A DNA stretch of 64,000 bases from Cyanophora paradoxa CCMP329 (taxonomy: Eukaryota > Plantae > Glaucophyta). The notes beneath the pieces are model-generated. The model saw only the letters and a list, made by a program, of their open reading frames with translations, ran no database searches and was not told the DNA's origin. Within the stretch, counting starts at the first letter, position 1. Every line of letters starts with the position of its first letter. Position numbers and translations under genes: made by a program. The stretch spans positions 372,001-436,000 of the forward strand of contig QPMI01000408.1 of the NCBI GenBank assembly GCA_004431415.1, in the 5' to 3' direction. Of this stretch, positions 1,197 to 53,891 are shown piece after piece.

Positions 1197-1248
1197 CTCT
1201 TATGTTTAAAATACCAAAAGAAATTTTTAAAATGCTTTATTAAACAGA

Positions 1249-2148: not shown

Positions 2149-2184
2149 GAAATACTGTAGAATAAATTTGTCTCGATATTACAA

Positions 2185-11515: not shown

Positions 11516-11520
11516 TAAGG

Positions 11521-12937: not shown

Positions 12938-12989
12938 TTTTATTCAGATTATCAGATTATTTTTATATGAAACAATCAATGAGGAATAA

Positions 12990-29637: not shown

Positions 29638-31457
29638 GCGTGTACGCAGATGCTCCGGTGCGTGCCGGACCGTCTCCGACCCCCTCGCGGCGATGTGACG
29701 CGACTCAGATATGTCGGGACTGCTGTTCGGCGCGTGCGCTCGCGCCCCGCGCTTGCAGCTGTCGGTCGACGTTAAACGCGCCAATGGCTACTTGCTGTTT
29801 CGCCGCAGGTTCATCTGGCGCCGATGCGTTGTCGATAAACTCACAAAATGAACACGATGTAGAAGTTCGCTTCAACCTGCGATGCCCGGACGACGTTAGC
29901 TAGATATCGCGAGCGACTGCCAGATAAAGACGCGCGGCGGGCTTCAACTTCCACAAATTGTAGTGCAGCACGCCATCGCTCACCAGGATCTCGCGCAAAT
30001 GAAGCAAAGTCGAGGCGTGGAGGCCCGAATTCGGACGTTCCGTCGACCTCGACAACCGGGGTACAGGTTATCGACGCATTTCGTCGCACGCTTCAAGGCT
30101 TGCTTGCATGCGCGGAAGTCGGGATTTCAACAAAATCAAAGCACCCTAACTCGCAGGCGTAGCTGATCACGAGTCTGACCGTCGGACATGAAATGCGCAC
30201 TGACACATGCGCCGTGCCACGGTGTACCGGCCGCGCGCGCTCGCGTCCGACCGTCGGACTCGGCGATGGTCGATTCACGGCGCACGTGCACGTGGCACTA
30301 AAGCATGTACTGCGGCCGGCAGCCCGCGCGCGGCCGGAGCGTTACAGATCTAGACTCTCAGAGTCTAATATAAGAACTTCGGAAGGTATAGGCTCGCCCA
30401 CGGCGCCCGGCGGCCTGAAGTCTAAAACCCAAGCCCCTGAGCCTCTTCTGGGGTCGGCCTGTGCCGCGCGCGCGCCTGCGCAGCTGCCAGGCTGCAGTGT
30501 ATTGCCGCAAGTTGCGTTTGCGCATGCCAGTTTAACGGCTTAATTTAAGCTGGCAATTGGCACCGCCGGGCCGGTTAACGTTCACGCGTAGCTGCGCGGC
30601 ACTGGCACATCGATATCATGGCATGTACAGCGGCTCTGCCGCATGCGCAGATCTAGATCTAGACTGCAGCTGAGAGCGCGCGGCCCGCGGCCCGGCTGGG
30701 GCATCATCTAGATCTAGATCTCGAGCTCAGTCTCATATTTAATTCAATGATTCACCAACGTTAACACCTGCCAGGCTGGCGCGTGGAGCCTCACAGCATT
30801 ATATAAATGATATCGATATCGATATTGATCATGACCATCGATGATATCGATCACCCCGAACGTGCACCCGTGGCCGGGCTGCAAATATAAATATATAAGA
30901 ACTCCAGAAAATATTATATTTAGAAATGGGGCACTCCATATGTAAGAACAATGCAGCGCGGCGCATACTCAAAAGTTTCATTTCTTTTATTTACGGGCGC
31001 TAACACAGCACTAGCTATTGAGTGCTTGCTCGAGCTCGGCGCCTGGCATGCGCCGAAAATTGCGACGAACTTGGAGAGGACAAGCAGATCTAGACAATTT
31101 CTTGCCAACTTGGCAAGTTGAAGACTCGAACATATAGATCTAGACAGATGCATAGAATACCATATCTAAATCCAGACGGACTGGGGGAAAGCGAACTAAG
31201 AATATTACAAAGCGATGAGGCCTTGGGGAATGATATCCTTATATAATTATAAGGAGTCTACAGCGAATGCGAGGCAGTAATGTAAACGTTTAAAGTTGAA
31301 TAGACTTTCAAAGGGGCCTATGGGCTACGAAGCGTGTGAGCCTATATGCGAAACCAACAAGCGAGCCCTAATCCTGAAAGAGTGGTTCGATGGCCGCTCA
31401 CCGGTAGCCGCTCTTGTTGTGGTCGACAAACGTCGTCTGCGGGGGACAGGCGGGGCG

Positions 31458-32041
31458 TCAGGCGGGGGGTACACGCGGCGAGGCGGCGGGGGGTACAGGA
31501 GGGCGCACCCGGTACATGGTTTGGAAGGGGTTGTACTTGTAGACGGGCGGCGCCGGCGCGGCGGAGGCGTGCCGGTCGGGGGCCGGGGCCGGCGCGGGGG
31601 ATCCGGAGGGGGAGGCTGCCGGCGGGGGGGAGGGGCTGGCGTGGGCGGCCGGCGCCTTGGCCGCCTCCGACTTGGCGGTCGAGCCGAGGTTCAGATACAT
31701 CCTCCGCTGCGCAGGGCGGCCGGCCGCTTCTCGTCAGCGGCGGGGAGGCGGGGGCGCGGCGCGCTCGCAATTTGATCAGGCCCCCAGGCCCGGCCGCGCG
31801 CGCGCCTCACCTTCTCGTCGGGATCAGCGAACTCGTAGGAGTAGGTGCTCCTGCGCGAGAGATATAAGCAAGCAACGCCGAACGGAGGAAAGCTTAGGCC
31901 CGCCGCGCCCCCGCCGTCTCCCTCGAAGCTCGAGTCGAGAAGCTTCCGGATCCGCGCGCGGGTCCGGACACACGCGCGGCTCGGGCCCCGCGGGGAACGC
32001 CGAAAGGCGAAAACGCACCGGAAGTGGTTGTATGCCGGCAT
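31458..32041 (-). CDS. Small Pro-rich hypothetical protein (copy 1; copy 2 at 39855-40436)
   Basis: Exon-like segments MPAYNHFR, STYSYEFADPDEK and ...PPVYKYNPFQTMYRVRPPVPP* bounded by GT/AG; structure uncertain. Confidence 0.35.
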
Positions 32042-32720
32042 TGTATCGTTGAAACGCTCGTGGACCGCGAGCTGGGACTTCACCTGCCGAGACGTCGACG
32101 ATAAGGCGGCGGCCGGGCCTTGCGGGCTTCGCGGTGGGATGCGAGTGACACAAAGATCGTCTAGCAGTCGTTTCGCGACTTCCGCTCACCACAGGAGGCT
32201 GGGCTTGGGCTGTTCTCGGTCTGCGGGGCTGCCGGCCGTGCGATGCAAAGGACGCGGAAGGCGACTGCAGGTTTAACAACTGATCAGCACGATGAAGCAG
32301 GCGCACACCGGAGGGCACAGCAGCGGACCTGGAAGTTTCGTCGACTTTTTTTCCACGCCCGTCAGCTGTACCCAGACTGCTCCATTCTTGCGGACCCCCT
32401 CGCGAGCAGCTGGCGATGGAGCCGAGGCCGCCTCCCTCTAGGGAGGCATCTCTTTCGGCACGCCAGCCGTGGGTTTCCAGGTCGCTGGCCGAGTACGTGC
32501 TGTCCGCGCCTGCGCTTCACGAGCAAGCGCCGCAAGACACACGGTGAGACGCAATCTGTAGGCCAGGCGTCCCAGGCGACGACCCCGCTCGAGCCGAGCG
32601 CGACGGCCAGGCTGCGATTGCGGTCTGATAACCGCCGCGTCGCGCAGCCGCCTGCCGCCGCATCTACCGCTCCCGCCTCTGAAGCTACCGATCCCCGAAA
32701 AGCCGTTCGAGGACCCGCGC

Positions 32721-33442
32721 ATGGCCCCGCACCTGCCTATGTCCTCGAACTTGCCCGCGCCACGCTGGATCACCACGCCGAACCTCTCGGACGTCCGGCA
32801 CAACCCGCAGTGCGTCTCCTCTTCGCTTGCGATTCCCTGCGCCGAGCAGGCCCCAGCGCCGTCCCCGGCGCCCCGCCCCGGGCGCGCGGCCCTCCGAGTC
32901 CCCTTCCGCACCGACCGTTCCCGCTGCTCCAAGCCTTCGCTAGCTCCAGAAGTCCCCGGGTCCCGCTGCGCGCCTATACTGCGATGCGGGGCCGCTCCTC
33001 CTTCCCCGCCACCCTAGGCGAGCCCCGCGCGCGTCCTGACCGAAGCCGCGCGCGCGGCCGCAGGTGGGCGCACCACTACGCCTTTGGGTGGGGCCCCACG
33101 ACGAAGGCGCCCCCGAACCACTTCCCCGTGAAGGCGAGCCGGAGCCCGCCCCCGCCCCGACCCGCCGCCGCCCCCGCCGCGGCCCGGGGTCTGAAGCCGC
33201 CGGGGGCGCCAGGTCGTGCGGGGCGACGCGCACGCGTACGTCGAGAACATTCGGTTCACGCACGCGAAGATCAAGCGGAGGAGCACGAGCTCCCGCCCCG
33301 TGCCCCCCGTCCACCCCCAGTGCGCAGCTTGCAGCCTCCCCGCGCAGCGCCCCGCCCCGCCGCGCCCCGCCGCGCCGACCCCGGCGCCCGCAGATACACC
33401 CGATGCGTCCCGGGGCTGCCCCTCGCCCTCCGAAGCCCCTAA
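32721..33442 (+). CDS. Small hypothetical protein (copy 1; copy 2 at 41112-41833)
   Basis: Exons ...PRWITTPNLSDVRHNPQ, WAHHYAFGWGPTTKAPPNHFPVK, VVRGDAHAYVENIRFTHAKIKRR, YTRCVPGLPLALRSP* separated by short C-rich introns. Confidence 0.5.
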
Positions 33443-33750
33443 AAAAAGTCCCTTTTACATACTGTCGCCCCGACTGGGCGCTCTTTTTCGTTTTTCCCTC
33501 GCTTTTTCCACGTGTGACATGCGTTCCGACTCTTTTTCACGTAGGCAGATTATCAGGTAGACTTAGGCAGATCGCAGATGCTGTGCATTCACGTAATAGA
33601 TACGTTTTCACCATTGCCGGCGATGCGGGCCCGGGGAGGGAGGGCGCGGAGGAGGGGCCTCGGCGGGACGCTGGGGCCGGGGGCGTGGAAGCTTGGGCGC
33701 GTGGAGGGGAGATTGATTGAGAGGGGTGCGCGCTCATCTAGATCTCGAGC

Positions 33751-34275
33751 TCATTGCTGCGTCTTCTGCTGCTCTTGTGCCTTCTGCTGCTGTGCGAGCG
33801 CGAGCGCCGCTCTCCTGCCCGCCTCCTCCGCAGCTGCAGTCCGGTGGTCCTGGTCAGCGCTGCTTCGAGGCGAGGGGCGGGCCGCGAGCGCTGCGGCCGC
33901 CCACACCTTTCCTGCGCTCGATGAGCTGCAGGGCCTCTTCCTCCGCCGCGCGCTCTGCCCGCCGCTCCGCTTCTTTCTGCGTCACGATCTTGTCTGAGCG
34001 GCGCGGCGACGTCAGCGGCCGCCGCGCGAGTGCAGTCGTTCGGAGGATCTCAGCGCACAGAAGCCCGTCACGTTCACTGCGCGGAAGGTTGGCGTCGCGC
34101 AAGGGCGAAATGGAGCAGCGCGCCGCGGCGCACTGAACCACTCGATGCCAGCGCCGATGACGAAGAAGACGGGGACGACTCGCAGCGTCTGCCGCATCAA
34201 GGAGGGCGGCGGCGGCGAGGCCGGGCCGGCCGCGGTGCCGGTGCCAGGAGAGCGGCCGCCAAGCGGCGAGCGCAT
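33751..34275 (-). CDS. UQCC5/SMIM4 (UPF0640)-like small membrane protein, copy 1
   Basis: Spliced product LRVVPVFFVIGAGIEWFMNVTGFYKIVTQKEAERR fits the FF..GA..E..M...(TG)FY family pattern; uses an 18-nt microexon at 34059-34076. Confidence 0.7.
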
Positions 34276-34462
34276 CGCTGATGGTCTGGGGCGTCGGCTG
34301 TCGATCAAGCGTCTATAGCTAAGGTTGCTGTGTCGATCTTCTTCTTCGCGCCGGCTGCGGGCACTCAAACTGCTGCTCGCTCCAAAAATCCGGTATCCGG
34401 CTGATCAAGGCGCGAAATCAACTGGGACTGCGGCACGCGACGGCCGACGGGCGCGTTCGGAC

Positions 34463-35133
34463 ATGGAGCGGGAGAATGGACCGGCCTGGCCCTGGGCCGC
34501 CGCCACGCTGGCCGGCATGAGCCTGGAGGAGAAAGTGCGGCAGCTCTTTATGATGGGCGCGGTGTCGAGCTACAGCGATCAGGAGGTGAACGACACGATA
34601 AGCCTCGTTCGTGACGGCCGGATCGGGTGCGCCGGGTCCTCTGTCCAGATTGCCGTGTGTCACGTGGCGCCGCTGACGAAGACCGCCCCGCGTGGCGCTC
34701 GGGGCGCGCGTACGATCATCTCACACGCGCGTACGTGCAGCGGTCTCATCTTCATGGTGGGCGAGCCCGTGCGGCAGGTGGAGATGACGAACGCGTTCCA
34801 GCGCGCGGCCGCCGTCCCGCTGCTCGTCGCCCAGGACAGCGAGTGGGGCCTCTCGATGCGCCTCCGCGGCACGCCGGTCTTCCCCCGCAACGCGGCCCTC
34901 GGCGCCATCCCGGCGCACCGCGAGCGGCTGCTGCTGGAATTCGGGCGGGCGGTCGGGGAGCAGTGCCGCCGCATCGGCGTGCACGTCAACTTCGCGCCCG
35001 TCGTCGACGTGAACAACAACCCGCGGAACCCGGTCATCGGCGACCGTTCCTTCGGCGAGCGGCCCGACGAAGTCGCGCGCTGCGCCGCCGCCGTCGCGCG
35101 CGGCATGCGCGAGGGCGGCGCCGTCAACTGCGC

Positions 35134-35164
<31 letters not shown>

Positions 35165-36624
35165 GTCGACTCCCACCTCGACCTCCCCGTTCGTCCCGGC
35201 CCCGTACCCCTCGCCCCCTCCCCGCCGCTCCCCGATCGCCGTACCCCGTCGGACAGGTCATCCGCCACAGCCTGGAGCGCCTCAGGGCCGTCGAGATGGC
35301 CCCGTTCCGCGCGCTGGTACCCCCCCAGCGAGCCCGGGTACGCGAAGTGAATTCGATCCGCGGCGCAGGTCCGTGACGTGGACTCCGTCATGGTGGCCCA
35401 CCTCCACGTACCCTCCGTGGACCCTACGGAGGGCCTACCCCTCTCCCTCTCCCGCCCCTGCGTCACCGGCCTCCTCCGGTGCGGCGAAGGTGGCGGCGTG
35501 ATGGAAGGGGGTACCCTCTTCTCTGAATATCGACGCCCGTACCCCCGCAGGGAGGAGCTCGGGTTCGACGGCCTCGTCTTCACTGATTCGCTCACGATGA
35601 TGGGCGTCGCCAAGCGGTGCGCGATTGCCATACCCCCGCTCGTCGGAGAGTATCCCCCGTCCGACGCGGGGGTACAGCTACGGAATGGCCGAGGCGGGGC
35701 TCATGGCTCTCCTCGCTGGCTCGGACGTCCTCCTCTACACCGTACCCCACCCGGACCCGAAGGAGCAGGCTCGCGCTCATTCTTCGACCCCTGTGCCCCA
35801 ATCGAGGATCGCTTATCCCCCTTTCGCCGCAGGCGCGCATCGTCGACGAGGCGACGGCGCTGATCCTCGCGGCCGTCAAGGTGCGCCGTACCCCCCGCCG
35901 CCCGCGGACCCACCCCGTATCCCCCTCTGAGCCGCCCTCCGGCAGGACGGGAGGCTCGCGGAGTCCGAAGTGAACCGGCGGGCGGCGCGCGTGCTGGAGA
36001 CGAAGGAGCGATTGGGGCTCCCCTCCTCCCGCCTCGTCCCGGGGCTCGAATCCGCACAGGAGCTCTTCTCCGACACCCAGCGCCGCCTCAAGCGCGGTCC
36101 GCGCCCCCGTACCCCCCTTCCCGCGCTTACGTACCCCCCTGAAACCCGCTCCAGAGCTGTACCGGGCGGCCGTGACGCTGGTCTCGGACCCCGCGCGCGC
36201 CGTACCCCTCAAGTCCGCCCTCCACCTGCTGGCCCTGGGGCACCCGCAGGCCGGCGAGCCGCGCCTCGCCTCCGCGCTGGCCCGCCTCCTCCCTTACCCC
36301 GTGTCCGTCTCCTCCTCCCCCGCGGACGCGGGGGTACGCCCCATCGTCGCCGCCCTCTTCCTCGAGAAGGAGAAGCTCTCGGCGCTGCCGGGGAGCCCCC
36401 TCCTGCAGGGGGTACAGGCGCAGCTGGCGGCCCTCCCCGCGCCGCCGGCGGCCCTCGTGCTCTTCGGGAGCCCGTACCTCCTAGCGCTGGCCCCGGCGGC
36501 CCTGCGCTCGGCCGCCGCAGTCCTCGTGGCCTACGACGAGGACGGGGAGGCCCAGGAGGCGGCCGCCCAGGTCCTGGCGGGGGTGCACGCCCCCTCCGGC
36601 TCCCTCCCCGTCACCGTCGACTAG
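34463..36624 (+). CDS. Glycoside hydrolase family 3, NagZ-type beta-N-acetylhexosaminidase, copy 1 (8 exons)
   Basis: MSLEEKVRQLF, AQDSEWG, NFAPVVDVNNNPRNPVIGDRSFGE, KHFPGHGDTDVDSH (NagZ signature), VMVAH, FDGLVFTDSL, PSGSLPVTV*. Confidence 0.9.
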
Positions 36625-36661
36625 GGGACATAACTTAGTAAATACAGAAACAAAAGCGAGG

Positions 36662-37430
36662 CTAGCTGGAGGACTTGGGGCCGTCGTCGCCGCCGAGCTT
36701 GGCGCGGAGGCTGTCGATGCACCAGGCGCCCTTGCCGGCCCCCAGGTTCACGGCGAAGTGGGGGAGGAGGCCCCTCGGGTCCACGCACGCCACGTAGTGC
36801 ACCAGCGTGTGCTGCGCGGAGCATCAGAACTGATAGCGAGTCGACGATGCGGCCGGAGCGGATCGGACCTGCGCCTCGCTGCCGCCGGCGCCGTCGGGGG
36901 GTACGGGGTCCAGCACCAGCCCCGCGATGATGACCTGCGGCCCGACCGGGGGGGGGGGGGGGGGGGATGAGAGGGCCCCCGGGAGGGGGGGGGGGGGGGG
37001 CAAGGGAGGGGGGGGGGGGGGGGAAGAAGGGCGCCGGGGCGGGCCTGGCTGCGGATGTGGCCCGGCTCGACGGGAACGTCGGGCAGGTCGGCCTCCGCGC
37101 TCCCGACGACCCAGGCGCCGCCCGGCAGGCGCCGCCGCCCGAAGGTGCAGAGGACCTCTCGCTGGCTGATCACCGGCCGCAGGCCGTAGAAGGACCACTG
37201 CGGGGCCGAAGCGCGATCAAATTCGAGTCCGAGCGGGCGCGGGGCGCGACAGCGTACCCAGACGAGAGCGTGGGCGTCGTCGATGCGCTTCAGGAGGCGC
37301 CCGCCGCTGCAGAGCGGGTCCCACTCCGGCCGCCGCTCCAGCAGCGAGCACACCGCCAGCACATCCTCCGGCGGGTGCCGTATCCGCCCGTGCGCTGCGC
37401 TCGCAAGCGGCGCGCTCGTCAGCGGCGCGC
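36662..37430 (-). pseudogene. 5'-truncated copy of the START-domain gene
   Basis: Matches 45053-45818 but is cut at the duplication junction inside an intron; no start or first exons. Confidence 0.85.
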
Positions 37431-38539
37431 AAATGAAGCAAAGTCGAGGCGTGGAGGCCCGAATTCGGACGTTCCGTCGACCTCGACAACCGGGGTACAG
37501 GTTATCGACGCATTTCGTCGCACGCTTCAAGGCTTGCTTGCATGCGCGGAAGTCGGGATTTCAACAAAATCAAAGCACCCTAACTCGCAGGCGTAGCTGA
37601 TCACGAGTCTGACCGTCGGACATGAAATGCGCACTGACACATGCGCCGTGCCACGGTGTACCGGCCGCGCGCGCTCGCGTCCGACCGTCGGACTCGGCGA
37701 TGGTCGATTCACGGCGCACGTGCACGTGGCACTAAAGCATGTACTGCGGCCGGCAGCCCGCGCGCGGCCGGAGCGTTACAGATCTAGACTCTCAGAGTCT
37801 AATATAAGAACTTCGGAAGGTATAGGCTCGCCCACGGCGCCCGGCGGCCTGAAGTCTAAAACCCAAGCCCCTGAGCCTCTTCTGGGGTCGGCCTGTGCCG
37901 CGCGCGCGCCTGCGCAGCTGCCAGGCTGCAGTGTATTGCCGCAAGTTGCGTTTGCGCATGCCAGTTTAACGGCTTAATTTAAGCTGGCAATTGGCACCGC
38001 CGGGCCGGTTAACGTTCACGCGTAGCTGCGCGGCACTGGCACATCGATATCATGGCATGTACAGCGGCTCTGCCGCATGCGCAGATCTAGATCTAGACTG
38101 CAGCTGAGAGCGCGCGGCCCGCGGCCCGGCTGGGGCATCATCTAGATCTAGATCTCGAGCTCAGTCTCATATTTAATTCAATGATTCACCAACGTTAACA
38201 CCTGCCAGGCTGGCGCGTGGAGCCTCACAGCATTATATAAATGATATCGATATCGATATTGATCATGACCATCGATGATATCGATCACCCCGAACGTGCA
38301 CCCGTGGCCGGGCTGCAAATATAAATATATAAGAACTCCAGAAAATATTATATTTAGAAATGGGGCACTCCATATGTAAGAACAATGCAGCGCGGCGCAT
38401 ACTCAAAAGTTTCATTTCTTTTATTTACGGGCGCTAACACAGCACTAGCTATTGAGTGCTTGCTCGAGCTCGGCGCCTGGCATGCGCCGAAAATTGCGAC
38501 GAACTTGGAGAGGACAAGCAGATCTAGACAATTTCTTGC

Positions 38540-39504
38540 CATCTGTTCGGTCCGGCTCGATTAAACTAGGGGGAGCGATTGGCGAGAGACCGAAGCACTA
38601 AACACGAGCTAGTACGTCTCTAAATGCATATTTGATGCTCAGTCTCTCGCGGACGCGGTACAAGATTTTCCTAGATGTATGGTCATACAAACGGGACGAG
38701 GAAAAGGCCAGTTTCGCGGCGAGCTAGCCGAGCTAGCAGCGCGCCCGGCCGGCGTCTTATTGCTCCAGCGTTCGAGTCCCGGGAAGGGCAGTTGGGGGGA
38801 GCGGGGGGGCCTGGGCGGGCCTTGAGCTGCCTTGCGCCGTCGAGGGCTGAAGAGGGGGCCGGGCGCAGCGACCTCCGAGGCCAACTTTCGCGCTGCGAGG
38901 TACTGGCGCGAGACCAAAAATGTTTTTCGTCTCTGCTCATCTAAAATGCACTTCCTACGTGCCCGGTCTCGCGCCAGTCACTCGCTGTGCTCCGCTTTAA
39001 TTTCGGCTGGATTGGTATGGCATCTGTTCGGTCCGGCTCGATTAAACTAGGGGGAGCGATTGGCGAGAGACCGAAGCACTAAACACGAGCTAGTACGTCT
39101 CTAAATGCATATTTGATGCTCAGTCTCTCGCGGACGCGGTACAAGATTTTCCTAGATGTATGGTCATACAAACGGGACGAGGAAAAGGCCAGTTTCGCGG
39201 CGAGCTAGCCGAGCTAGCAGCGCGCCCGGCCGGCGTCTTATTGCTCCAGCGTTCGAGTCCCGGGAAGGGCAGTTGGGGGGAGCGGGGGGGCCTGGGCGGG
39301 CCTTGAGCTGCCTTGCGCCGTCGAGGGCTGAAGAGGGGGCCGGGGCGCAGCGACCTCCGAGGCCAACTTTCGCGCTGCGAGGTACTGGCGCGAGACCAAA
39401 AATGTTTTTCGTCTCTGCTCATCTAAAATGCACTTCCTACGTGCCCGGTCTCGCGCCAGTCACTCGCTGTGCTCCGCTTTAATTTCGGCTGGATTGGTAT
39501 GGCA
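38540..39504. mobile_element. Head-to-tail dimer of a ~480-bp non-coding element (units 38542-39020 and 39023-39502)
   Basis: Absent from the matching site in duplication copy 1 (~31101-31117); all three junctions share only CA; hairpins near both ends. Confidence 0.9.
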
Positions 39505-42140
39505 ACTTGGCAAGTTGAAGACTCGAACATATAGATCTAGACAGATGCATAGAATACCATATCTAAATCCAGACGGACTGGGGGAAAGCGAACTAAGAAT
39601 ATTACAAAGCGATGAGGCCTTGGGGAATGATATCCTTATATAATTATAAGGAGTCTACAGCGAATGCGAGGCAGTAATGTAAACGTTTAAAGTTGAATAG
39701 ACTTTCAAAGGGGCCTATGGGCTACGAAGCGTGTGAGCCTATATGCGAAACCAACAAGCGAGCCCTAATCCTGAAAGAGTGGTTCGATGGCCGCTCACCG
39801 GTAGCCGCTCTTGTTGTGGTCGACAAACGTCGTCTGCGGGGGACAGGCGGGGCGTCAGGCGGGGGGTACACGCGGCGAGGCGGCGGGGGGTACAGGAGGG
39901 CGCACCCGGTACATGGTTTGGAAGGGGTTGTACTTGTAGACGGGCGGCGCCGGCGCGGCGGAGGCGTGCCGGTCGGGGGCCGGGGCCGGCGCGGGGGATC
40001 CGGAGGGGGAGGCTGCCGGCGGGGGGGAGGGGCTGGCGTGGGCGGCCGGCGCCTTGGCCGCCTCCGACTTGGCGGTCGAGCCGAGGTTCAGATACATCCT
40101 CCGCTGCGCAGGGCGGCCGGCCGCTTCTCGTCAGCGGCGGGGAGGCGGGGGCGCGGCGCGCTCGCAATTTGATCAGGCCCCAGGCCCGGCCGCGCGCGCG
40201 CCTCACCTTCTCGTCGGGATCAGCGAACTCGTAGGAGTAGGTGCTCCTGCGCGAGAGATATAAGCAAGCAACGCCGAACGGAGGAAAGCTTAGGCCCGCC
40301 GCGCCCCCGCCGTCTCCTCGAAGCTCGAGTCGAGAAGCTTCCGGATCCGCGCGCGGGTCCGGACACACGCGCGGCTCGGGCCCCGCGGGGAACGCCGAAA
40401 GGCGAAAACGCACCGGAAGTGGTTGTATGCCGGCATTGTATCGTTGAAACGCTCGTGGACCGCGAGCTGGGACTTCACCTGCCGAGACGTCGACGATAAG
40501 GCGGCGGCCGGCCTTGCGGGCTTCGCGGTGGGATGCGAGTGACACAAAGATCGTCTAGCAGTCGTTTCGCGACTTCCGCTCACCACAGGAGGCTGGGCTT
40601 GGGCTGTTCTCGGTCTGCGGGGCTGCCGGCCGTGCGATGCAAAGGACGCGGAAGGCGACTGCAGGTTTAACAACTGATCAGCACGATGAAGCAGGCGCAC
40701 ACCGGAGGGCACAGCAGCGGACCTGGAAGTTTCGTCGACTTTTTTCCACGCCCGTCAGCTGTACCCAGACTGCTCCATTCTTGCGGACCCCCTCGCGAGC
40801 AGCTGGCGATGGAGCCGAGGCCGCTCCCTCTAGGGAGGCATCTCTTTCGGCACGCCAGCCGTGGGTTTCCAGGTCGCTGGCCGAGTACGTGCTGTCCGCG
40901 CCTGCGCTTCACGAGCAAGCGCCGCAAGACACACGGTGAGACGCAATCTGTAGGCCAGGCGTCCCAGGCGACGACCCCGCTCGAGCCGAGCGCGACGGCC
41001 AGGCTGCGATTGCGGTCTGATAACCGCCGCGTCGCGCAGCCGCCTGCCGCCGCATCTACCGCTCCCGCCTCTGAAGCTACCGATCCCGAAAAGCCGTTCG
41101 AGGACCCGCGCATGGCCCCGCACCTGCCTATGTCCTCGAACTTGCCCGCGCCACGCTGGATCACCACGCCGAACCTCTCGGACGTCCGGCACAACCCGCA
41201 GTGCGTCTCCTCTTCGCTTGCGATTCCCTGCGCCGAGCAGGCCCCAGCGCCGTCCCCGGCGCCCCGCCCCGGGCGCGCGGCCCTCCGAGTCCCCTTCCGC
41301 ACCGACCGTTCCCGCTGCTCCAAGCCTTCGCTAGCTCCAGAAGTCCCCGGGTCCCGCTGCGCGCCTATACTGCGATGCGGGGCCGCTCCTCCTTCCCCGC
41401 CACCCTAGGCGAGCCCCGCGCGCGTCCTGACCGAAGCCGCGCGCGCGGCCGCAGGTGGGCGCACCACTACGCCTTTGGGTGGGGCCCCACGACGAAGGCG
41501 CCCCCGAACCACTTCCCCGTGAAGGCGAGCCGGAGCCCGCCCCCGCCCCGACCCGCCGCCGCCCCCGCCGCGGCCCGGGGTCTGAAGCCGCCGGGGGCGC
41601 CAGGTCGTGCGGGGCGACGCGCACGCGTACGTCGAGAACATTCGGTTCACGCACGCGAAGATCAAGCGGAGGAGCACGAGCTCCCGCCCCGTGCCCCCCG
41701 TCCACCCCCAGTGCGCAGCTTGCAGCCTCCCCGCGCAGCGCCCCGCCCCGCCGCGCCCCGCCGCGCCGACCCCGGCGCCCGCAGATACACCCGATGCGTC
41801 CCGGGGCTGCCCCTCGCCCTCCGAAGCCCCTAAAAAAAGTCCCTTTTACATACTGTCGCCCCGACTGGGCGCTCTTTTTCGTTTTTCCCTCGCTTTTTCC
41901 ACGTGTGACATGCGTTCCGACTCTTTTTCACGTAGGCAGATTATCAGGTAGACTTAGGCAGATCGCAGATGCTGTGCATTCACGTAATAGATACGTTTTC
42001 ACCATTGCCGGCGATGCGGGCCCGGGGAGGGAGGGCGCGGAGGAGGGGCCTCGGCGGGACGCTGGGGCCGGGGCGTGGAAGCTTGGGCGCGTGGAGGGGA
42101 GATTGATTGAGAGGGGTGCGCGCTCATCTAGATCTCGAGC

Positions 42141-42665
42141 TCATTGCTGCGTCTTCTGCTGCTCTTGTGCCTTCTGCTGCTGTGCGAGCGCGAGCGCCGC
42201 TCTCCTGCCCGCCTCCTCCGCAGCTGCAGTCCGGTGGTCCTGGTCAGCGCTGCTTCGAGGCGAGGGGCGGGCCGCGAGCGCTGCGGCCGCCCACACCTTT
42301 CCTGCGCTCGATGAGCTGCAGGGCCTCTTCCTCCGCCGCGCGCTCTGCCCGCCGCTCCGCTTCTTTCTGCGTCACGATCTTGTCTGAGCGGCGCGGCGAC
42401 GTCAGCGGCCGCCGCGCGAGTGCAGTCGTTCGGAGGATCTCAGCGCACAGAAGCCCGTCACGTTCACTGCGCGGAAGGTTGGCGTCGCGCAAGGGCGAAA
42501 TGGAGCAGCGCGCCGCGGCGCACTGAACCACTCGATGCCAGCGCCGATGACGAAGAAGACGGGGACGACTCGCAGCGTCTGCCGCATCAAGGAGGGCGGC
42601 GGCGGCGAGGCCGGGCCGGCCGCGGTGCCGGTGCCAGGAGAGCGGCCGCCAAGCGGCGAGCGCAT
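42141..42665 (-). CDS. UQCC5/SMIM4 (UPF0640)-like protein, copy 2
   Basis: Duplicate of 33751-34275. Confidence 0.7.
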
Positions 42666-42852
42666 CGCTGATGGTCTGGGGCGTCGGCTGTCGATCAAGC
42701 GTCTATAGCTAAGGTTGCTGTGTCGATCTTCTTCTTCGCGCCGGCTGCGGGCACTCAAACTGCTGCTCGCTCCAAAAATCCGGTATCCGGCTGATCAAGG
42801 CGCGAAATCAACTGGGACTGCGGCACGCGACGGCCGACGGGCGCGTTCGGAC

Positions 42853-43523
42853 ATGGAGCGGGAGAATGGACCGGCCTGGCCCTGGGCCGCCGCCACGCTG
42901 GCCGGCATGAGCCTGGAGGAGAAAGTGCGGCAGCTCTTTATGATGGGCGCGGTGTCGAGCTACAGCGATCAGGAGGTGAACGACACGATAAGCCTCGTTC
43001 GTGACGGCCGGATCGGGTGCGCCGGGTCCTCTGTCCAGATTGCCGTGTGTCACGTGGCGCCGCTGACGAAGACCGCCCCGCGTGGCGCTCGGGGCGCGCG
43101 TACGATCATCTCACACGCGCGTACGTGCAGCGGTCTCATCTTCATGGTGGGCGAGCCCATGCGGCAGGTGGAGATGACGAACGCGTTCCAGCGCGCGGCC
43201 GCCGTCCCGCTGCTCGTCGCCCAGGACAGCGAGTGGGGCCTCTCGATGCGCCTCCGCGGCACGCCGGTCTTCCCCCGCAACGCGGCCCTCGGCGCCATCC
43301 CGGCGCACCGCGAGCGGCTGCTGCTGGAATTCGGGCGGGCGGTCGGGGAGCAGTGCCGCCGCATCGGCGTGCACGTCAACTTCGCGCCCGTCGTCGACGT
43401 GAACAACAACCCGCGGAACCCGGTCATCGGCGACCGTTCCTTCGGCGAGCGGCCCGACGAAGTCGCGCGCTGCGCCGCCGCCGTCGCGCGCGGCATGCGC
43501 GAGGGCGGCGCCGTCAACTGCGC

Positions 43524-43554
<31 letters not shown>

Positions 43555-45015
43555 GTCGACTCCCACCTCGACCTCCCCGTTCGTCCCGGCCCCGTACCCC
43601 TCGCCCCCTCCCCGCCGCTCCCCGATCGCCGTACCCCGTCGGACAGGTCATCCGCCACAGCCTGGAGCGCCTCAGGGCCGTCGAGATGGCCCCGTTCCGC
43701 GCGCTGGTACCCCCCCCAGCGAGCCCGGGTACGCGAAGTGAATTCGATCCGCGGCGCAGGTCCGTGACGTGGACTCCGTCATGGTGGCCCACCTCCACGT
43801 ACCCTCCGTGGACCCTACGGAGGGCCTACCCCTCTCCCTCTCCCGCCCCTGCGTCACCGGCCTCCTCCGGTGCGGCGAAGGTGGCGGCGTGATGGAAGGG
43901 GGTACCCCTCTTCTCTGAATATCGACGCCCGTACCCCCGCAGGGAGGAGCTCGGGTTCGACGGCCTCGTCTTCACTGATTCGCTCACGATGATGGGCGTC
44001 GCCAAGCGGTGCGCGATTGCCATACCCCCGCTCGTCGGAGAGTATCCCCCGTCCGACGCGGGGGTACAGCTACGGAATGGCCGAGGCGGGGCTCATGGCT
44101 CTCCTCGCTGGCTCGGACGTCCTCCTCTACACCGTACCCCACCCGGACCCGAAGGAGCAGGCTCGCGCTCATTCTTCGACCCCTGTGCCCCAATCGAGGA
44201 TCGCTTATCCCCCTTTCGCCGCAGGCGCGCATCGTCGACGAGGCGACGGCGCTGATCCTCGCGGCCGTCAAGGTGCGCCGTACCCCCGCCGCCCGCGGAC
44301 CCACCCCGTATCCCCCTCTGAGCCGCCCTCCGGCAGGACGGGAGGCTCGCGGAGTCCGAAGTGAACCGGCGGGCGGCGCGCGTGCTGGAGACGAAGGAGC
44401 GATTGGGGCTCCCCTCCTCCCGCCTCGTCCCGGGGCTCGAATCCGCACAGGAGCTCTTCTCCGACACCCAGCGCCGCCTCAAGCGCGGTCCGCGCCCCCG
44501 TACCCCCCTTCCCGCGCTTACGTACCCCCCTGAAACCCGCTCCAGAGCTGTACCGGGCGGCCGTGACGCTGGTCTCGGACCCCGCGCGCGCCGTACCCCT
44601 CAAGTCCGCCCTCCACCTGCTGGCCCTGGGGCACCCGCAGGCCGGCGAGCCGCGCCTCGCCTCCGCGCTGGCCCGCCTCCTCCCTTACCCCGTGTCCGTC
44701 TCCTCCTCCCCCGCGGACGCGGGGGTACGCCCCATCGTCGCCGCCCTCTTCCTCGAGAAGGAGAAGCTCTCGGCGCTGCCGGGGAGCCCCCTCCTGCAGG
44801 GGGTACAGGCGCAGCTGGCGGCCCTCCCCGCGCCGCCGGCGGCCCTCGTGCTCTTCGGGAGCCCGTACCTCCTAGCGCTGGCCCCGGCGGCCCTGCGCTC
44901 GGCCGCCGCAGTCCTCGTGGCCTACGACGAGGACGGGGAGGCCCAGGAGGCGGCCGCCCAGGTCCTGGCGGGGGTGCACGCCCCCTCCGGCTCCCTCCCC
45001 GTCACCGTCGACTAG
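42853..45015 (+). CDS. GH3 NagZ-type beta-N-acetylhexosaminidase, copy 2
   Basis: Duplicate of 34463-36624, with one Val>Met difference (G34769 vs A43159). Confidence 0.9.
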
Positions 45016-45052
45016 GGGACATAACTTAGTAAATACAGAAACAAAAGCGAGG

Positions 45053-46144
45053 CTAGCTGGAGGACTTGGGGCCGTCGTCGCCGCCGAGCTTGGCGCGGAG
45101 GCTGTCGATGCACCAGGCGCCCTTGCCGGCCCCCAGGTTCACGGCGAAGTGGGGGAGGAGGCCCCTCGGGTCCACGCACGCCACGTAGTGCACCAGCGTG
45201 TGCTGCGCGGAGCATCAGAACTGATAGCGAGTCGACGATGCGGCCGGAGCGGATCGGACCTGCGCCTCGCTGCCGCCGGCGCCGTCGGGGGGTACGGGTC
45301 CAGCACCAGCCCCGCGATGATGACCTGCGGCCCGACCGGGGGGGGGGGGGGGGGATGAGAGGGCCCCGGGGAGGGGCGGGGGTGGGGGGCAAGGGAGGGG
45401 GGGGGGGGGGGAAGAAGGGCGCCGGGGCGGGCCTGGCTGCGGATGTGGCCCGGCTCGACGGGAACGTCGGGCAGGTCGGCCTCCGCGCTCCCGACGACCC
45501 AGGCGCCGCCCGGCAGGCGCCGCCGCCCGAAGGTGCAGAGGACCTCTCGCTGGCTGATCACCGGCCGCAGGCCGTAGAAGGACCACTGCGGGGCCGAAGC
45601 GCGATCAAATTCGAGTCCGAGCGGGCGCGGGGCGCGACAGCGTACCCAGACGAGAGCGTGGGCGTCGTCGATGCGCTTCAGGAGGCGCCCGCCGCTGCAG
45701 AGCGGGTCCCACTCCGGCCGCCGCTCCAGCAGCGAGCACACCGCCAGCACATCCTCCGGCGGGTGCCGTATCCGCCCGTGCGCTGCGCTCGCAAGCGGCG
45801 CGCTCGTCAGCGGCGCGCGGCCGCGCCCGCGCGGGCGGGCCGGGCCAGCGCGCGGCACGCGCCGGGCGCACCGCGGAAGACGTGCAGCGATTCCCGCCGG
45901 TTGCGGAACACGCGCACGCCGTCCGACTCTGCGCCGCACGAGTCAGGCGCGCCCGCTGCAGTCGACCAGGCGCGGCTCGGCAGTCGAGCGCTTGAGCGGC
46001 CGCACCCTTCCAGTACTCCCAGCCGTGGCTCTCGTCCTCCTCCTTGATGGCGCGCCAGATGCAGTCTAGCGCCGCCTCGCACGCCTCGACCTCCGCCGGC
46101 GCGGGCGCGGGCGCGGGCGCGGGATCCCCGGCCGCGGCCGCCAT
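45053..46144 (-). CDS. START/SRPBCC lipid-binding domain protein (multi-exon)
   Basis: GWEYWK..SDGVRVFR, RRPEWDPLC, RPVISQREVL, PVEPGHIRSQ, VHYVACVDPRGLLPHFAVN. Confidence 0.85.
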
Positions 46145-49135: not shown

Positions 49136-49484
49136 GTCAACGTGCGCGTTGACGTCGACTACGATTTCACAACATTTCTCTTCCTTCCTAAATATTCCTA
49201 GATAGTCTAGCCACGTCTTTGATCTTAAAATTATACTTGTTCGCACTCATTCCTAAATATCGATACCGATATCAGTCATATCACGCGAATTCATGCTCCC
49301 AATCGCTATATCTTAGTGTGTATACGTATAGTGTATGCGTCTTCGAAAATTCAGTTGCAGCTTGCACTTGGCAATCTCAACAGCACTGCGGTTCGGTTCG
49401 TTTAGCTACACAGGAAAGCATGCGCAGCGCTAGCAGAGAGGGCCAGGGCCCGGCCCCGGCCGGCTCGAACCGCGGGGCGCGCGC

Positions 49485-52400
49485 TCAGCCGCCGCAGTGC
49501 TCCAGCCGCGGCCGCTTCGGGTCGGGCGCCCCGGGCCCGCCCCCCGCCCCGCCCGCCGGGCCCGCCGCCTGCAGCTGCGGCTGCTGGTGCGGCCCCGCGG
49601 CCGGCGCGGCCTTCGCGGCCGAGGCGGCCGAACGGAACTGGGCCGGCGCCTGTCCCTGGCCCGGGCCCGCGCCCGGGGCGGCCCGCTGGGCGAAGGCGGC
49701 GGCCAGGGGCGCCCCCGAGGACCGCCCCGCCCGCAACGCCGCCACCGCCGGGTGCAGCTGCGGGGGGGGTGAGCCGGGCCGGGGCCCGGAGGGGCGCGGG
49801 GGGTATGACCTCGAGGGACTGCTCCCGGCGGACGAGCGAGTGGGGGATCTCCCGCAGGAAGACCGAAGGCTGCGCGGGGGTCGCCGGGGGGTACAGGCGC
49901 GGCGGGGCGGGGCGGGGCGGGGCGGGGCGGGCCTGCATCTGCCCCTTGTCCGGGGAGGAGATCGCGTGGGAGAGGTACAGCTCCGTGCGCGCCCGCGTCA
50001 TCGCCACGCTGCGTACCCCGGCCTCAGATGATCCCGTACCCCACCCCCTCGGGGGCAATCCGGCGGGGGGTACGCACAAGACGAGGCGCCGCTCGTCCTC
50101 GAGGTGCGTCGGGTCGACCTCGCCCTCCTCCCCGGGGTTTCGCACCGGGAACTCCCTGTTCCCCCCTCGGTCGGCGACCGCGTTCCATGCGCGCGCGGGC
50201 GGCGGCGGAAGGCCGTACCCGTCGTTCAGGCGGTACACGAAGACCGTGTCCCACTCGAGGCCCTTGGCCCCGTGCACCGTGCTGCGAACGAAGCGCGCTC
50301 CAGGGCCGCGGGGGGTACGACGCGGGCAGAAGGGGCGCGCCTGACGGTGACGGCGGCCGCCTGCGCCGCGCGGCTCGTCTTCTCGCGCTCCTCCTCCGCC
50401 TGCCGGGAACGGGTTCGAGCCCCGGCGGGGGAGAAAGAGGAGCCAGGGTACGGGACCTGCGTGAGGCGGTCGAGGAAGGCTCGGAGCACGGCCTCGGCGT
50501 GCTCGTCCCCCCTCGGGCCCTCGTACCCCGCCAGGAAGTCCTCTGGGCGGGGTTCGGGGCGGGCGGGGGCCGGGGTCGGAGGGGGGTACACCGCACCCGC
50601 GAAGGCGGCCATCTCGGAGCGGAGGGACTCCTCCCCCCCGCGCCCCGGCGCGTTGAACGAGATCCCTCTCCCGTGCGAGAGCTGGGGGGTACGCGTCAGA
50701 CCGAGGGCGCGCGCCCCGGCTGGATCTGGAGGGGACCCGCGCCTTCATCAGCACGTCGATGCAGACGCGGCCGACGGTCTCCGAGAGCTTGATGCGCGGG
50801 TAGCTGGGGGGGAGATGAGGCCGGGGGGTAGAGGGCGCGCCGGGGGTGCGGGGCCGGACCGGAAGCGGACGGTGTGGACGGCGTCGACGATGGCGGCCAG
50901 GCGGCCCCGCGCGTGGCTGCTGAACGGGCCCTCCTCTTCCCCCTCCCCCTCCGCCCCCCCCGCGCCCCCGGCGCCCCGGCCCTTGCCCTTCCCTTTGCCC
51001 TTGCCCCGCCCCTTCTTGCCGGCGGGGTGCATCTCCAGCAGCTCCCGCGCGGTCTGCGGGGGAGCCCGTCGTCAGTGGCCCTCGGGGGTACGCGGAAGGA
51101 AGGGCGGAGGGGTTACCTTGAGGAGGGGAATTTCGCGGGCGGCGGCGTGGGCGCTGATGGCCTCGCGCGCGCGCTTCTCGTGGAAGAGGCCGCTCGTCAG
51201 CGTCAGCGCCCGGAACGCCCCCTGTGCGGAGGATGAGAAGAGTAGGGGGGGGAAGGGGCGGGGGGTACGCACGTCGTCTTTCTCGTTGAGGACCAGGGCG
51301 AGGAGGTGGATCAGGTCCTGCACGGGCTTCCGGCTGCGCCCCAGGCGGGGTACAAGGAGCTGTCAGAGGAGGGGGGTACCGAAAAGGAAGGGGGCCGCGC
51401 CTGCAGCCGCGGACGGCGACGGGGATGCCGGCCGCGCCCAGGGCACTCTCCACCTCCTGGCAGGCTACCCGCGTCCGCGCCAGCACCGCCACCGAGCTGA
51501 GAGGGGGTACCGGATCGCGTGAGATGGGGGGAGGAGCCGGGAGGGGGTACGGCCGCACTCGAGGGACCTGCCCTGGCTCTTCAGCTCGGTGATCTTGCGG
51601 ATCAGGAACCTGGGAAGCGGGGTCGATTTTGGAGGAGGGAGGACGGGAGGACGGGAGGGGTAGGGGCGCTTACGAGGCCTCGCAGTCGGCGGTCCGCGCC
51701 TCGCAGACGACGGGCTGTATCCCCCCGCGCTTCTCGGGGGGTACCGCCACCCGCTTGAGCTCGCGCCGCTGGTTGTTCTTGATCAGCGCCGACGCCGCCT
51801 CCACGATGCAGCCTGCGCGGCTCGGCTCTCGGACCGCCGCGTTGCGGTCTCGGGGGTACAGGAGTACAGGATCCCGGCGCGCACCCGTGGACCGGTAGTT
51901 CGTGGAGAGGTGCATGGTCGTGACCGTGTGCGAGGAGCCCATCCCGATCCGCAGGCGCGCGAAGTTGTCGTCGCAGGCGCCCCTGGCGGGCACGGGCGCC
52001 CGTCAGAGCGGGGTACAAAGGAAAGAGCCGGGGGGGGGGGGAAGAAAGCCCGGGCACGAGAATCGGTAGATGGTCTGGTCGTCGTCTCCCACCGCCTGCG
52101 CGAGGCGAGCGAGCGACCCGCCCGGGCGGCTCAGCGCGCGGCGCCGCGGGCGAGGGCGGAGCGGGGCCGGCCGGCGGGCCAGCGGCTGACCGTGAGGTGG
52201 CCGTGCGAGGCGACGTGGGTGAGGAGGGTGAGCTGCGCCCGCGACGTGTCCTGCACCTCGTCCACTACCACGTCCCTGCGCCCCGCGCGCGGATCGAATC
52301 CCGCGTCGAGCGAGTCGCGGCGGGGGCCGGGCCGGGCGCCTGAAGCGGGAGGAGACGGCGGCGGCGATGTCGGGGCAGGAGACGAGGAGGTTGCGGGCGT

Positions 52401-53833
52401 GCTCGACCATGTCCACAAAGTCCTGCGCGGGGCAAGGCATTGGAACGGGACGGGGCCCGGCCCGGCCGGGCGGGGTTGAGGGTTGGGGGTTGGGGGACGG
52501 GGCAGGGCGGGGCGGGGCAGGCCGGAGCGGGGCGGGGGGACGCTGGCCGTTGCGCCTTCCTCTCGAAGCGCCCTCACAAGGAGGGTGGGGCAGGGCAGAG
52601 AGAGGCGGGGCGGGGCGGGGCGGTGCACGCGCTCCTCTGGGCGTCGTTTAGATGGGGCGGGGCGCAGGGGGCCGCACCATGCAGTTGCTCTCCTGCATGC
52701 GCCGCTCGTAGTGGGCCGCCACGAACGCCGCCTGCTCGTCCAGCTTCACGTACCCCCCGTTCCTGCGGGCGGTCAGGGTAGGAGGGGAGGAGGGGGGAAA
52801 GAGAGGGAGAAAGGGGGGTACTTCTTCCGCTGAATAGTGTCGAGCAGCCAGCGGGCCACCTTGTTCTCGAGGCGCGCGCGCTTCTCGGCCTGCATGCTGT
52901 TCTCCGCCGCGACGGCGACGACCTCCTCCTCGCTGCGCATCATCGTGCTCTTCCACACGAGGATGCCCTCCTTGACGAACTCGCGCTGCTGGAACCCCGA
53001 GGCGCAGGAGAAGTCCTTGGTGTAGCCGCCCGGGATTCGATCCACGAACTCGCGGCAGATGGAGAGCGCGAACGAGTGGAAGGTCGACGCCCGGATCCGC
53101 GAGGCCGCCCGCCCGATCTGTTTTTGGAGACGCGCCTTCAGCTCGCTCGCCGCCGCCGTCGAGAACCTGCAGACGCGGTCGGAAAAGCGGAGAGGAGGGT
53201 CCGCGGCGGGCGCCGAGAGGGAGCCCGCTCGCGCACGAGATGCAGAGGAGAGCTTCGGGGTTTTTCGTCTCCTCCACGATGCGCTGGATGCGGCGGACGA
53301 TGGTCGAGGTTTTCCTGCGGGGGCCGGGCCGGCGGGTTGAGCGAGGGCGTCGGTTCGGGCGAGGGAGCGAGGGAGCAAGCAGACCCCGATCCGGCGCTGG
53401 CGATGACGAGGAGCGGCTGGTCGAGGGGGGCCGCGACGACGGCTGCCTGCTCGTCGTTCAGGCCCTTCACCAGGTGCCCAGACACGGCCGCAGAGCCCGC
53501 GGAGGACGAGGCCGCGCTTCCGCTGCTGACTGCAGCACCGCTGAAGTTCGTTCGTGCGGATCGTGCCACGCTGGAGGTCCGCTGGTGCCCGCTGAAGGCT
53601 GCGCTCCCGTTCGCCTGCGGCTGGGTGTTGCTCGTTCGCACCGCAGCTTCCGTGCTCGCGGAGATCGGCGCGCTGTGGCTATTCGTTGCAGAAGCGACCG
53701 CGCCGTTCCCGGCGACCGAGCTCCCGCTGCTACGCCCAGCTGAGGTCGCTTTGAGCAGCTGCTCTTCCTCTTCGGGTGATAGATTGTTCCAGAAGGCGTC
53801 GTCATCGTCTAGATCTCCCTGCGCCGGCTCCAT
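49485..53833 (-). CDS. UvrD/PcrA/Srs2-like ATP-dependent DNA helicase (many exons)
   Basis: LNDEQAAVV..PLLVIASAGSGKT, STFHSFAL, VVVDEVQDT, VGDDDQTIYRF, LSTNYRS, VAVLART, VSTVHGAKGLEWDTVF, EDERRL..VAMTRAR, PSVFLREIP. Confidence 0.93.
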
Positions 53834-53891
53834 CGAATTTCAAAGGAGCTGGGTACGCGGTTATTTAAGCACGCCATCGAAGCACTCCGCC

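What the first reader, a model, noticed from the sequence alone, without database searches (positions are those of the whole stretch)
38540..39504. 480-bp non-coding element integrated as a tandem dimer through a 2-bp CA core into a palindromic target
Seen: the duplication supplies the empty site CTTGC-CA-ACTTGGCAAG (31101-31117), itself a palindrome (CTTGCCAA-C-TTGGCAAG). The filled site reads CTTGC-CA-[unit]-CA-[unit]-CA-ACTTGG. The unit has no true TIR, no poly(A) and no convincing ORF. It has an imperfect subterminal IR (TCCGGCTCGATTAAA / TTTAATTTCGGCTGGA) and related hairpins near each end: GCGAGAGAC..GTCTCTCGC (38582-38650) and ACTGGCGCGAGACC..GGTCTCGCGCCAGT (38902-38978), both loops containing TCTAAA(A)TGCA. 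Established: 2-bp cores and circle junctions typify recombinase-mobilised elements (IS607-like serine recombinases; Crypton tyrosine recombinases also use circles). Inference: a non-autonomous element moving via a circular or rolling intermediate; possibly a derivative of a Fanzor/TnpB-type element retaining a structured end RNA.
Basis: partly seen in the sequence, partly recalled or inferred. Interest (0 to 1): 0.7.

Follow-up and report, generated by a model that had tools for sequence, protein, structure and literature searches.

The report
Jumping satellite repeat with fixed ends
This 481-letter non-coding DNA piece occurs about 200-300 times in this organism's genome, mostly end-to-end, and a two-copy block sits at a spot that is empty in other samples, likely inserted recently through a five-letter matching site by a borrowed recombinase enzyme, which would make it a satellite repeat that spreads like a jumping gene.

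Summary
In detail: CA-unit-CA-unit-CA (38540-39504), with the empty site at 31101-31117. Public runs change the picture. The unit has about 180-310 copies per genome in two subfamilies (about 1:3). About 94-97% of left ends follow a right end, so it lives mainly in head-to-tail arrays. Outside flanks join at the same CA (within about 5 bp), and four runs show only the empty site, so the dimer is likely recent. Donor junction (TGG-CA-TCTG) and targets (about TGN-CA-NNT) resemble each other. Each end carries a 69-bp module of two inverted 9-mers. A Pol III A/B box lies inside, but its RNA is no more structured than chance. IS607 (GG core), Helitron, Replitron and Fanzor end-RNA features were tested and not met. 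Best reading: a non-autonomous, Crypton-like element whose right end (TGGCA) is itself a target, so it builds and seeds arrays, i.e. a mobile satellite with precise ends. No mobilising enzyme was found and circles are not shown. Rivals: rolling-circle HUH, serine recombinase, DDE double insertion, passive satellite spread. New variant of a known kind; interest 0.55.

The parts
38540..38541 (+). CA at the left junction; last two bases of target pentamer TGCCA (38537-38541)
38542..39022 (+). Unit 1 (TCTG...GGTATGG plus CA), 481-bp period; exact match to the minor (22-26%) subfamily at the junction
39023..39504 (+). Unit 2 plus CA, identical to unit 1 except one extra G
39018..39026 (+). Head-to-tail junction TGG-CA-TCTG; the commonest context of the ends in other runs
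   Evidence: table 8
38551..38565 (+). Left imperfect subterminal inverted repeat; two subfamily variants fall in it, so it is weakly conserved
38996..39011 (+). Right imperfect subterminal inverted repeat; its arms pair best about the C|A axis of the junction (13 of 30 positions, best of the centres tried)
38582..38650 (+). Left 69-bp module: GCGAGAGAC ... TCTAAATGCA ... GTCTCTCGC, 40 bp from the core; inferred protein-binding sites
38906..38974 (+). Right 69-bp module: GCGCGAGAC ... CATCTAAAATGCA ... GTCTCGCGC, 46 bp from the core, same orientation as the left module
38725..38736 (+). Pol III type-2 A box match (consensus TRGCNNARYNNG, recalled)
   Evidence: A+B pair in 15 of 20000 shuffles; the only A+B pairs in the 64-kb window are in the two units
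38770..38778 (+). Pol III B box match GTTCGAGTC, 45 bp after the A box start (tRNA-like spacing, recalled)
38923..38927 (+). TTTTT, first T-run after the B box; possible Pol III terminator (RNA of about 210 nt from about 38718; transcription not shown)
31101..31117 (.). Empty target site in duplicate copy 1; CA at 31106-07
29992..45818 (+). Recent 7.4-kb tandem duplication (GH3 gene region) whose second copy carries the insertion

Best explanation
The 481-bp unit is a non-coding repeat with about 200-300 copies, mostly end-to-end and with fixed ends, that likely moves as circles of one or more units which a Crypton-type tyrosine recombinase, inferred to be encoded elsewhere in the genome, would recombine into short TGNCA-like sites. 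The unit ends in TGGCA, a near copy of the target (TGCCA here), so each integrated right end would be a fresh target and each array a source of multi-unit circles; unequal exchange probably lengthens the arrays further. The paired 69-bp modules 40-46 bp either side of the junction are inferred binding sites, giving a roughly 230-bp attP-like donor and a minimal target. Shown: anatomy, copy number, head-to-tail majority, shared ends, empty alleles elsewhere. Inferred: circles, the enzyme and its class, the role of the modules, recency.
For: Copy number 176-314 and head-to-tail share 94% (X4, two ways) and 97% (X6 major subfamily). Outside flanks meet the unit within about 5 bp of the CA in all 5 left-entry rows and all 7 right exits tallied. 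Donor junction TGG-CA-TCT and target TGC-CA-ACT match at 6 of 8 positions. T at +3 in 5 of 5 right flanks read directly, 7 of 7 with two deduced from two-contig consensus rows, vs 22-30% background. The empty joint runs through unbroken in 4 of 4 runs. CryptonF-1_cRei ends in CACCG, targets CAYCG (5 bp, variable middle base), excises cleanly yet gains copies, and favours gene-proximal DNA (PMC9977147 section 7). Non-autonomous CryptonS elements of 465-1656 bp exist and most CryptonS end in TATGG, which this right end contains (PMC3212892 passages and supplement 1). IS607, Helitron1/2 and Replitron end rules were not met.
Against: No recombinase or autonomous copy was found: no genome is held, none in the 60 of 161 long frames scanned, and no hits in viral, metagenome, prokaryote or plasmid collections. 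Sequence identity at the crossover is only 2 bp and the junctions are hybrids, which a canonical 6-8-bp tyrosine-recombinase overlap centred there would not give; there are no 11-13-bp inverted arms around a 6-8-bp spacer (rule). TATGG is not repeated at the left of this insertion (CTTGC), unlike CryptonS. One left and one right flank show CG in place of CA, and one left flank has C at -3. Cryptons are described as lacking TIRs, whereas these ends are imperfect inverted repeats. Long Crypton arrays were not found in print. Flanks are few, come from diverged copies, and bases inside aligned parts were not shown. High-depth junction records have 27-30 letters on the left side, short of the tool's 31-letter bridging rule.
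Confidence: 0.45

Rival explanations
1. A non-autonomous HUH (Helitron-, Replitron- or IS200/IS605-like) element: unit TCTG...TGGCA is pasted 3' of a TGNCA-like target without duplication, and rolling-circle read-through gives dimers and arrays.
For: Starts with TC after an A, as Helitron1 does. Insertion reads orientation-specific, as for all Rep transposons. Two related palindromic modules in direct orientation recall IS200/IS605 ends (recalled). Helitron rolling circles give tandem arrays (10.1101/2021.06.02.446622 passages).
Against: No CTRR 3' end; the base after the unit is T in only 3 of the 6 CA-type right flanks; no perfect hairpin (stem >=5, loop 3-10) within about 45 nt of either end. 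The inverted repeats are symmetric, not Helitron2 ATIRs at 0-2 and 20-30 bp. No terminal direct repeat, fuzzy end or variable duplication as in Replitron-1. Module loops are about 50 nt, unlike compact HUH hairpins (recalled).
Confidence: 0.2
2. A serine-recombinase (IS607-like) element with a CA core in place of GG, moving as double-stranded circles.
For: The identity block is exactly 2 bp, and the best even-centred dyad of the junction falls between C and A (13 of 30). IS607 uses dsDNA circles and can leave non-matching dinucleotides at its two junctions.
Against: IS607 needs GG, lacks inverted or palindromic ends, and is the only eukaryotic serine-recombinase transposon known. The dyad is weak and two subfamily variants fall in it.
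Confidence: 0.1
3. A MITE-like DDE element with degenerate inverted ends and a 2-bp CA duplication; double insertion made dimers that expanded into arrays.
For: Ends align as imperfect inverted repeats over about 45 bp (1 of 2000 shuffles). Double insertion leaves the duplication between units and seeds arrays (10.1101/158386 passages). CG on one left and one right flank would fit a CG duplication if they are one locus (not established). TGNCA is palindromic, so the fixed CA orientation does not exclude this.
Against: The outermost 9 bp are not inverted repeats, whereas DDE enzymes need matching tips (established knowledge). A recent dimer would need two hits on one site when TG.CA..T[GT] occurs 34 times in 44 kb.
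Confidence: 0.1
4. An ordinary satellite or Pol III gene array whose pieces spread passively as extrachromosomal circles and insert by repair, as proposed for MSAT-11_cRei.
For: Arrays dominate; a Pol III A/B box is present; mobile satellites without TE features insert de novo in Chlamydomonas; internal loose ends show truncated or diverged relatives.
Against: Passive circles would break anywhere in the unit, yet this insertion is two exact units with no loss of target bases and other flanks join at the same CA. The second laying covered only 76 bp around the junction, so it could only show ends there.
Confidence: 0.1
5. A derivative of a Fanzor/TnpB element that keeps a structured guide RNA, or an RNA-guided (bridge-RNA-like) element.
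For: Internal Pol III promoter; GCCAACTT inside the candidate RNA matches the empty target across the core.
Against: Candidate RNA z = +0.73, 154 of 200 shuffles fold as well; 4 of 4 paired variants break their pairs; it ends about 95 bp before the right end, so it cannot take a guide from the flank; the 8-bp match is reached by 108 of 2000 shuffles and other targets differ there; no Rfam hit.
Confidence: 0.05

Closest known systems
Non-autonomous Cryptons (CryptonS-N families; CryptonF-1_cRei as the active model)
   Same: Short donor motif at one end nearly identical to a 5-bp target with a variable middle base; no long duplication; right end contains TATGG; size near CryptonS-N6_PS (465 bp).
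   Different: Imperfect inverted ends and paired 69-bp modules; TATGG not repeated at the left here; over 90% of copies head-to-tail; internal Pol III boxes; no recombinase linked.
MSAT-11_cRei mobile satellite of Chlamydomonas reinhardtii
   Same: Tandem arrays at several loci with new, strain-private insertions and no coding capacity.
   Different: MSAT-11 has a 1.9-kb monomer with no TE features and inserts 0.5 to over 21 kb; this unit has fixed ends, a target consensus and end modules.
IS607 / IS607EU (Fanzor2) serine-recombinase elements
   Same: 2-bp shared block, no true TIR or duplication, circle junction expected.
   Different: GG core and no palindromic ends in IS607; CA core and inverted end similarity here; no TnpA, TnpB or omega RNA found.
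Helitron1, Helitron2 and Replitron non-autonomous elements
   Same: Oriented insertion, 5' TC, tandem arrays, palindromes near ends.
   Different: No CTRR, no A^T or T^T rule, no compact terminal hairpin, no ATIR geometry, no terminal direct repeat or fuzzy end.

Membership tests
Crypton | Tyrosine recombinase encoded by the element or an autonomous partner with the same ends | not testable with these tools
   No genome held; none in the 60 window frames scanned; collection scans empty.
Crypton | [quoted passage not shown] | tested here: met
   TGCCA at left (target), TGGCA at right (terminus), 4 of 5 identical. Other flanks fit only loosely.
Crypton | No terminal inverted repeats | tested here: inconclusive
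   Tips are not inverted, but subterminal parts align as imperfect inverted repeats.
Crypton | Circular dsDNA intermediate and clean excision | not testable with these tools
   Contigs cannot tell circles from arrays.
CryptonS | TATGG at both termini | tested here: not met
   Right end has TATGG; the left flank here is CTTGC; only 1 of 5 left-entry rows aligns through TATGG (rule).
IS607 / IS607EU | GG core; integration at or after GG | tested here: not met
   Shared block is CA; GG precedes it in 1 of the 3 left flanks readable there (rule).
IS607 / IS607EU | No inverted or palindromic ends | tested here: not met
   Imperfect inverted ends and palindromic modules (rule).
Helitron1 | 5' TC, 3' CTRR, 3' subterminal hairpin, A^T target | tested here: not met
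   TC present; end is GGCA; no hairpin found near the end; T follows in 3 of 6 CA-type flanks (rule).
Helitron2 | Asymmetric inverted repeats at 0-2 and 20-30 bp, hairpins at both ends, T-rich target | tested here: not met
   Repeats start 9-11 bp from each end; no terminal hairpins; target not T-rich (rule).
Replitron | Short direct repeat belonging to both termini (plus RG target, fuzzy end, variable duplication in Replitron-1) | tested here: not met
   No such repeat inside the unit; ends sharp (rule).
Fanzor/TnpB derivative | Structured omega RNA overlapping the right end | tested here: not met
   No Rfam hit at E<=10; the Pol III candidate is internal, z = +0.73. Expression not tested.
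DIRS (non-autonomous) | Internal region complementary to the joined ends | tested here: not met
   Best internal match reached by 710 of 1000 shuffles.
tRNA-derived SINE | Pol III promoter at the 5' end, A-rich or simple-repeat tail, long variable duplication | tested here: not met
   A/B boxes lie about 180 bp inside; no tail; no long duplication.
Satellite DNA | Head-to-tail arrays of many monomers | tested here: inconclusive
   94-97% junctions and a steady 22-26% subfamily share in 4 runs fit chromosomal arrays, but array lengths and circles were not seen.

The most novel reading that the evidence does not exclude
A satellite DNA that is a self-targeting integrative element: an undescribed eukaryotic recombinase family recognises the paired 69-bp modules as an attP-like site, crosses over at CA, and both seeds new loci and extends arrays, while the internal Pol III RNA is a functional cargo. 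It would be active in culture and give a direct mechanism for satellite spread.
Probability: 0.15. Interest if true: 0.85.

Novelty: new variant of a known kind. Interest (0 to 1): 0.55.

Why it matters
How satellites reach new chromosomal sites is described as unclear (PMC9940879 passage), and Crypton transposition has not been shown experimentally (PMC13565253 passage). A short unit with exact ends, a readable target, filled and empty alleles and 200-300 tandem copies in a much-sequenced organism would make both questions testable by PCR and long reads. If the partner is a small recombinase with a minimal target, it would also be a candidate integration tool.

Tried and rejected
No own genome. 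Exact or degenerate patterns found nothing in viral contigs, metagenome contigs (32, 40) or genome contigs (41); blastn of plasmids found nothing. Rfam and ARAGORN were blank. No RNA holder was listed; this says nothing on expression. Earlier findings gave nothing on this element. Rejected: single-copy sequence deleted from copy 1 (depth); assembly artefact (ends coincide with those at other loci; the unit count of two could not be checked in raw reads); structured Pol III RNA; DIRS internal complementary region (51); GCCAACTT as a guide (108 of 2000 shuffles, 51); hammerhead, SRP and Sm-site look-alikes noticed by eye, with no Rfam support (30). Protection of motifs from variants is only suggestive: 1 of 14 inside vs about 3 expected, p = 0.12. 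The X7 ratio of 0.94 printed was dropped because both records span the junction; for X5 a left-end record stood in for the major-subfamily junction, which was not shown. Searches used a host guess (Cyanophora, from recalled intron style and GC; unverified) as a search term and listed no paper on such a repeat. No protein-homology, fold or complex job was run, as the unit has no ORF.

Full report
Observation. The window reads TTGC-CA-[unit 1, 38542-39020]-CA-[unit 2, 39023-39502]-CA-ACTTGG. The units differ by one G in a G-run. The insert lies in the second copy of a 7.4-kb tandem duplication; the first copy has the empty site TTGC-CA-ACTTGG at 31101-31117 with no bases lost or gained, and the copies are 99.76% identical with 3 mismatches and 14 gap openings. 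The host is an intron-dense eukaryote of about 70% GC; it is not identified, and no genome is held.

Anatomy. Each end has a 69-bp module: a 9-mer GCG(A/C)GAGAC, about 50 bp holding TCTAAA(A)TGCA, then the inverted 9-mer. The modules lie 40 and 46 bp from the CA, so the junction block spans 228 bp. Left and right modules are related (8 of 2000 shuffles) and the two ends align as imperfect inverted repeats (1 of 2000), but the outermost 9 bp do not. In the major subfamily the left loop also reads CATCTAAA, like the right loop (variants at 38617-18). A Pol III A box and B box (consensus recalled) lie inside at tRNA spacing; 15 of 20000 shuffles have such a pair and the rest of the window has none. 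The predicted 210-nt RNA is not more structured than chance (z = +0.73), 4 of 4 paired variants break their pairs, and Rfam and ARAGORN find nothing.

Other runs. 20 of 24 listed runs of organism A, from 18 studies, hold half or more of the unit's words. I laid 4 runs on the whole locus and 4 on 76 bp around the junction; 6 different runs in all, contigs only. (a) Copy number: junction or end contigs reach depths of 2,800-19,900 against 36-122 for flank contigs, giving 176-314 units; the subfamily identical to the window's units is 22-26% in all four runs. (b) Arrangement: in X4, junction contigs carry 11,412 of 12,142 depth at the left end (94%), and 2,778 of 2,955 for right ends of the exact subfamily (94%); in X6 the major subfamily gives 97%. 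These high-depth records have 27-30 letters left of the junction, short of the tool's 31-letter rule; X7 record 27 (depth 7) meets it. Depth is a rough guide only. The steady shares across runs fit chromosomal arrays better than free circles (inference). (c) This site: in 4 of 4 runs one contig passes from 38539 to 39503 without a break, at the depth of the flank. Contigs drop rare variants, so absence of the filled allele is likely, not proven. (d) Ends: of the 23 loose-end rows shown (5 not shown), those that leave the unit into unrelated DNA do so at 39016-39025; 4 rows mark diverged unit sequence. (24 rows shown, 145 not) adds two left entries at 38537 and also internal breaks, so truncated or diverged relatives exist.

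Target. Right flanks read directly: CA-ACTT (window), CA-TATG, CA-AATG, CA-TCTT, CG-TGTA. Two more were deduced from two-contig consensus rows, assuming ties are printed alphabetically; both have T at +3. T at +3 is thus 5 of 5 or 7 of 7, against 22-30% of CA sites in the window; one case is favoured by alignment extension. Left flanks: TGC-CA (window), CGG-CA, TTT-CG, one aligned through TATGG, two aligned to the T at -3; bases inside aligned parts were not shown. The loose consensus TGN-CA-NNT resembles the junction TGG-CA-TCT (6 of 8 at this site). The long palindrome is not general.

Mechanism. Sequence alone places the crossover within the 2-bp identity block and cannot name the chemistry. 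The closest documented pattern is Crypton: a terminal donor motif and a near-identical 5-bp target with a variable middle base (CACCG / CAYCG), clean excision, rising copy number. Here the pair is TGGCA / TGCCA, and the right end holds TATGG, the usual CryptonS terminus, though not as a repeat. Since the right end is a target-like site, repeat integration and excision of multi-unit circles would explain both arrays and a recent exact dimer; two independent hits on one site are unlikely when TG.CA..T[GT] occurs 34 times in 44 kb. Against: the hybrid junctions do not fit a centred 6-8-bp overlap, Cryptons are said to lack TIRs, and no enzyme was found. I give Crypton-like 0.45, HUH rolling circle 0.2, serine 0.1, DDE double insertion 0.1, passive satellite 0.1, RNA-guided 0.05. 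It works like a Crypton-type integrative element; membership is unproven, and CryptonS, IS607, Helitron1/2, Replitron, DIRS and SINE features were tested and not met.

What I read. PMC10288648: parts 1-5 of 7 of the text. PMC9977147: passages and section 7. PMC3212892: passages and supplement 1. Passages only: PMC13565253, 10.1101/2023.11.20.567912, PMC3627910, 10.1101/158386, PMC9940879, 10.1101/2021.06.02.446622. Other papers were seen as search listings only. Preprint supplements were not seen, and Repbase/Dfam cannot be searched here, so the family may already be catalogued. IS200/IS605 end layout, attP architecture and Pol III consensus boxes are recalled.

Novelty. Searches listed no paper that, by title and abstract start, describes a Crypton-like element living mainly as tandem arrays or a mobile satellite with fixed ends and a target consensus; the library lacks most subscription papers. 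TE-derived arrays, Helitron arrays and a mobile satellite are known, so this is a new variant of a known kind. Interest 0.55: real, likely recently active and testable, but the enzyme is missing.

Noticed in passing
window 1-14000: AT-rich (39-47% GC) block of intronless, co-oriented ORFs: a 1406-aa protein with SF1-type helicase/AAA hits, two related rve-integrase-like ORFs (weak Pfam hits) either side of a 797-aa ORF with a weak endonuclease VII hit and, by eye, family B polymerase motifs; looks like an endogenous Polinton-like element.
   Followed up: partly
window 60866-64000 (+): Non-LTR retrotransposon ORF, RVT_1 E = 1.2e-29, running off the window.
   Followed up: partly
window 29992-45818: Recent tandem duplication of a GH3 gene region; flank depth in four runs suggests 2-3 copies there.
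   Followed up: partly
window 38711-38878 (contigs in X3, X5, X7, X11): A low-copy locus shares only the A/B-box part of the unit, lacks 56 bp of it and has a TATA-like motif just upstream (tables 5, 7, 8): either a host Pol III gene captured by the element or a decayed copy.
   Followed up: no
window 38537-38663 and 38985-39022 (X3 records 10, 13; X4 record 2): Low-depth relatives about 9-16% diverged with the same ends; candidates for the ends of an autonomous partner.
   Followed up: no
window 30300-31400: AT-rich, palindrome-rich intergenic stretch with 9 TG.CA..T[GT] sites in 1.1 kb, against 34 in 44 kb overall; one other left flank also holds CTTGCCAACT.
   Followed up: partly
window 49400-53900 (-); 24242-25321 (+): Intron-rich UvrD/REP-type helicase gene and a PRiA4_ORF3 domain exon; host genes with no shown link to the element.
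   Followed up: no
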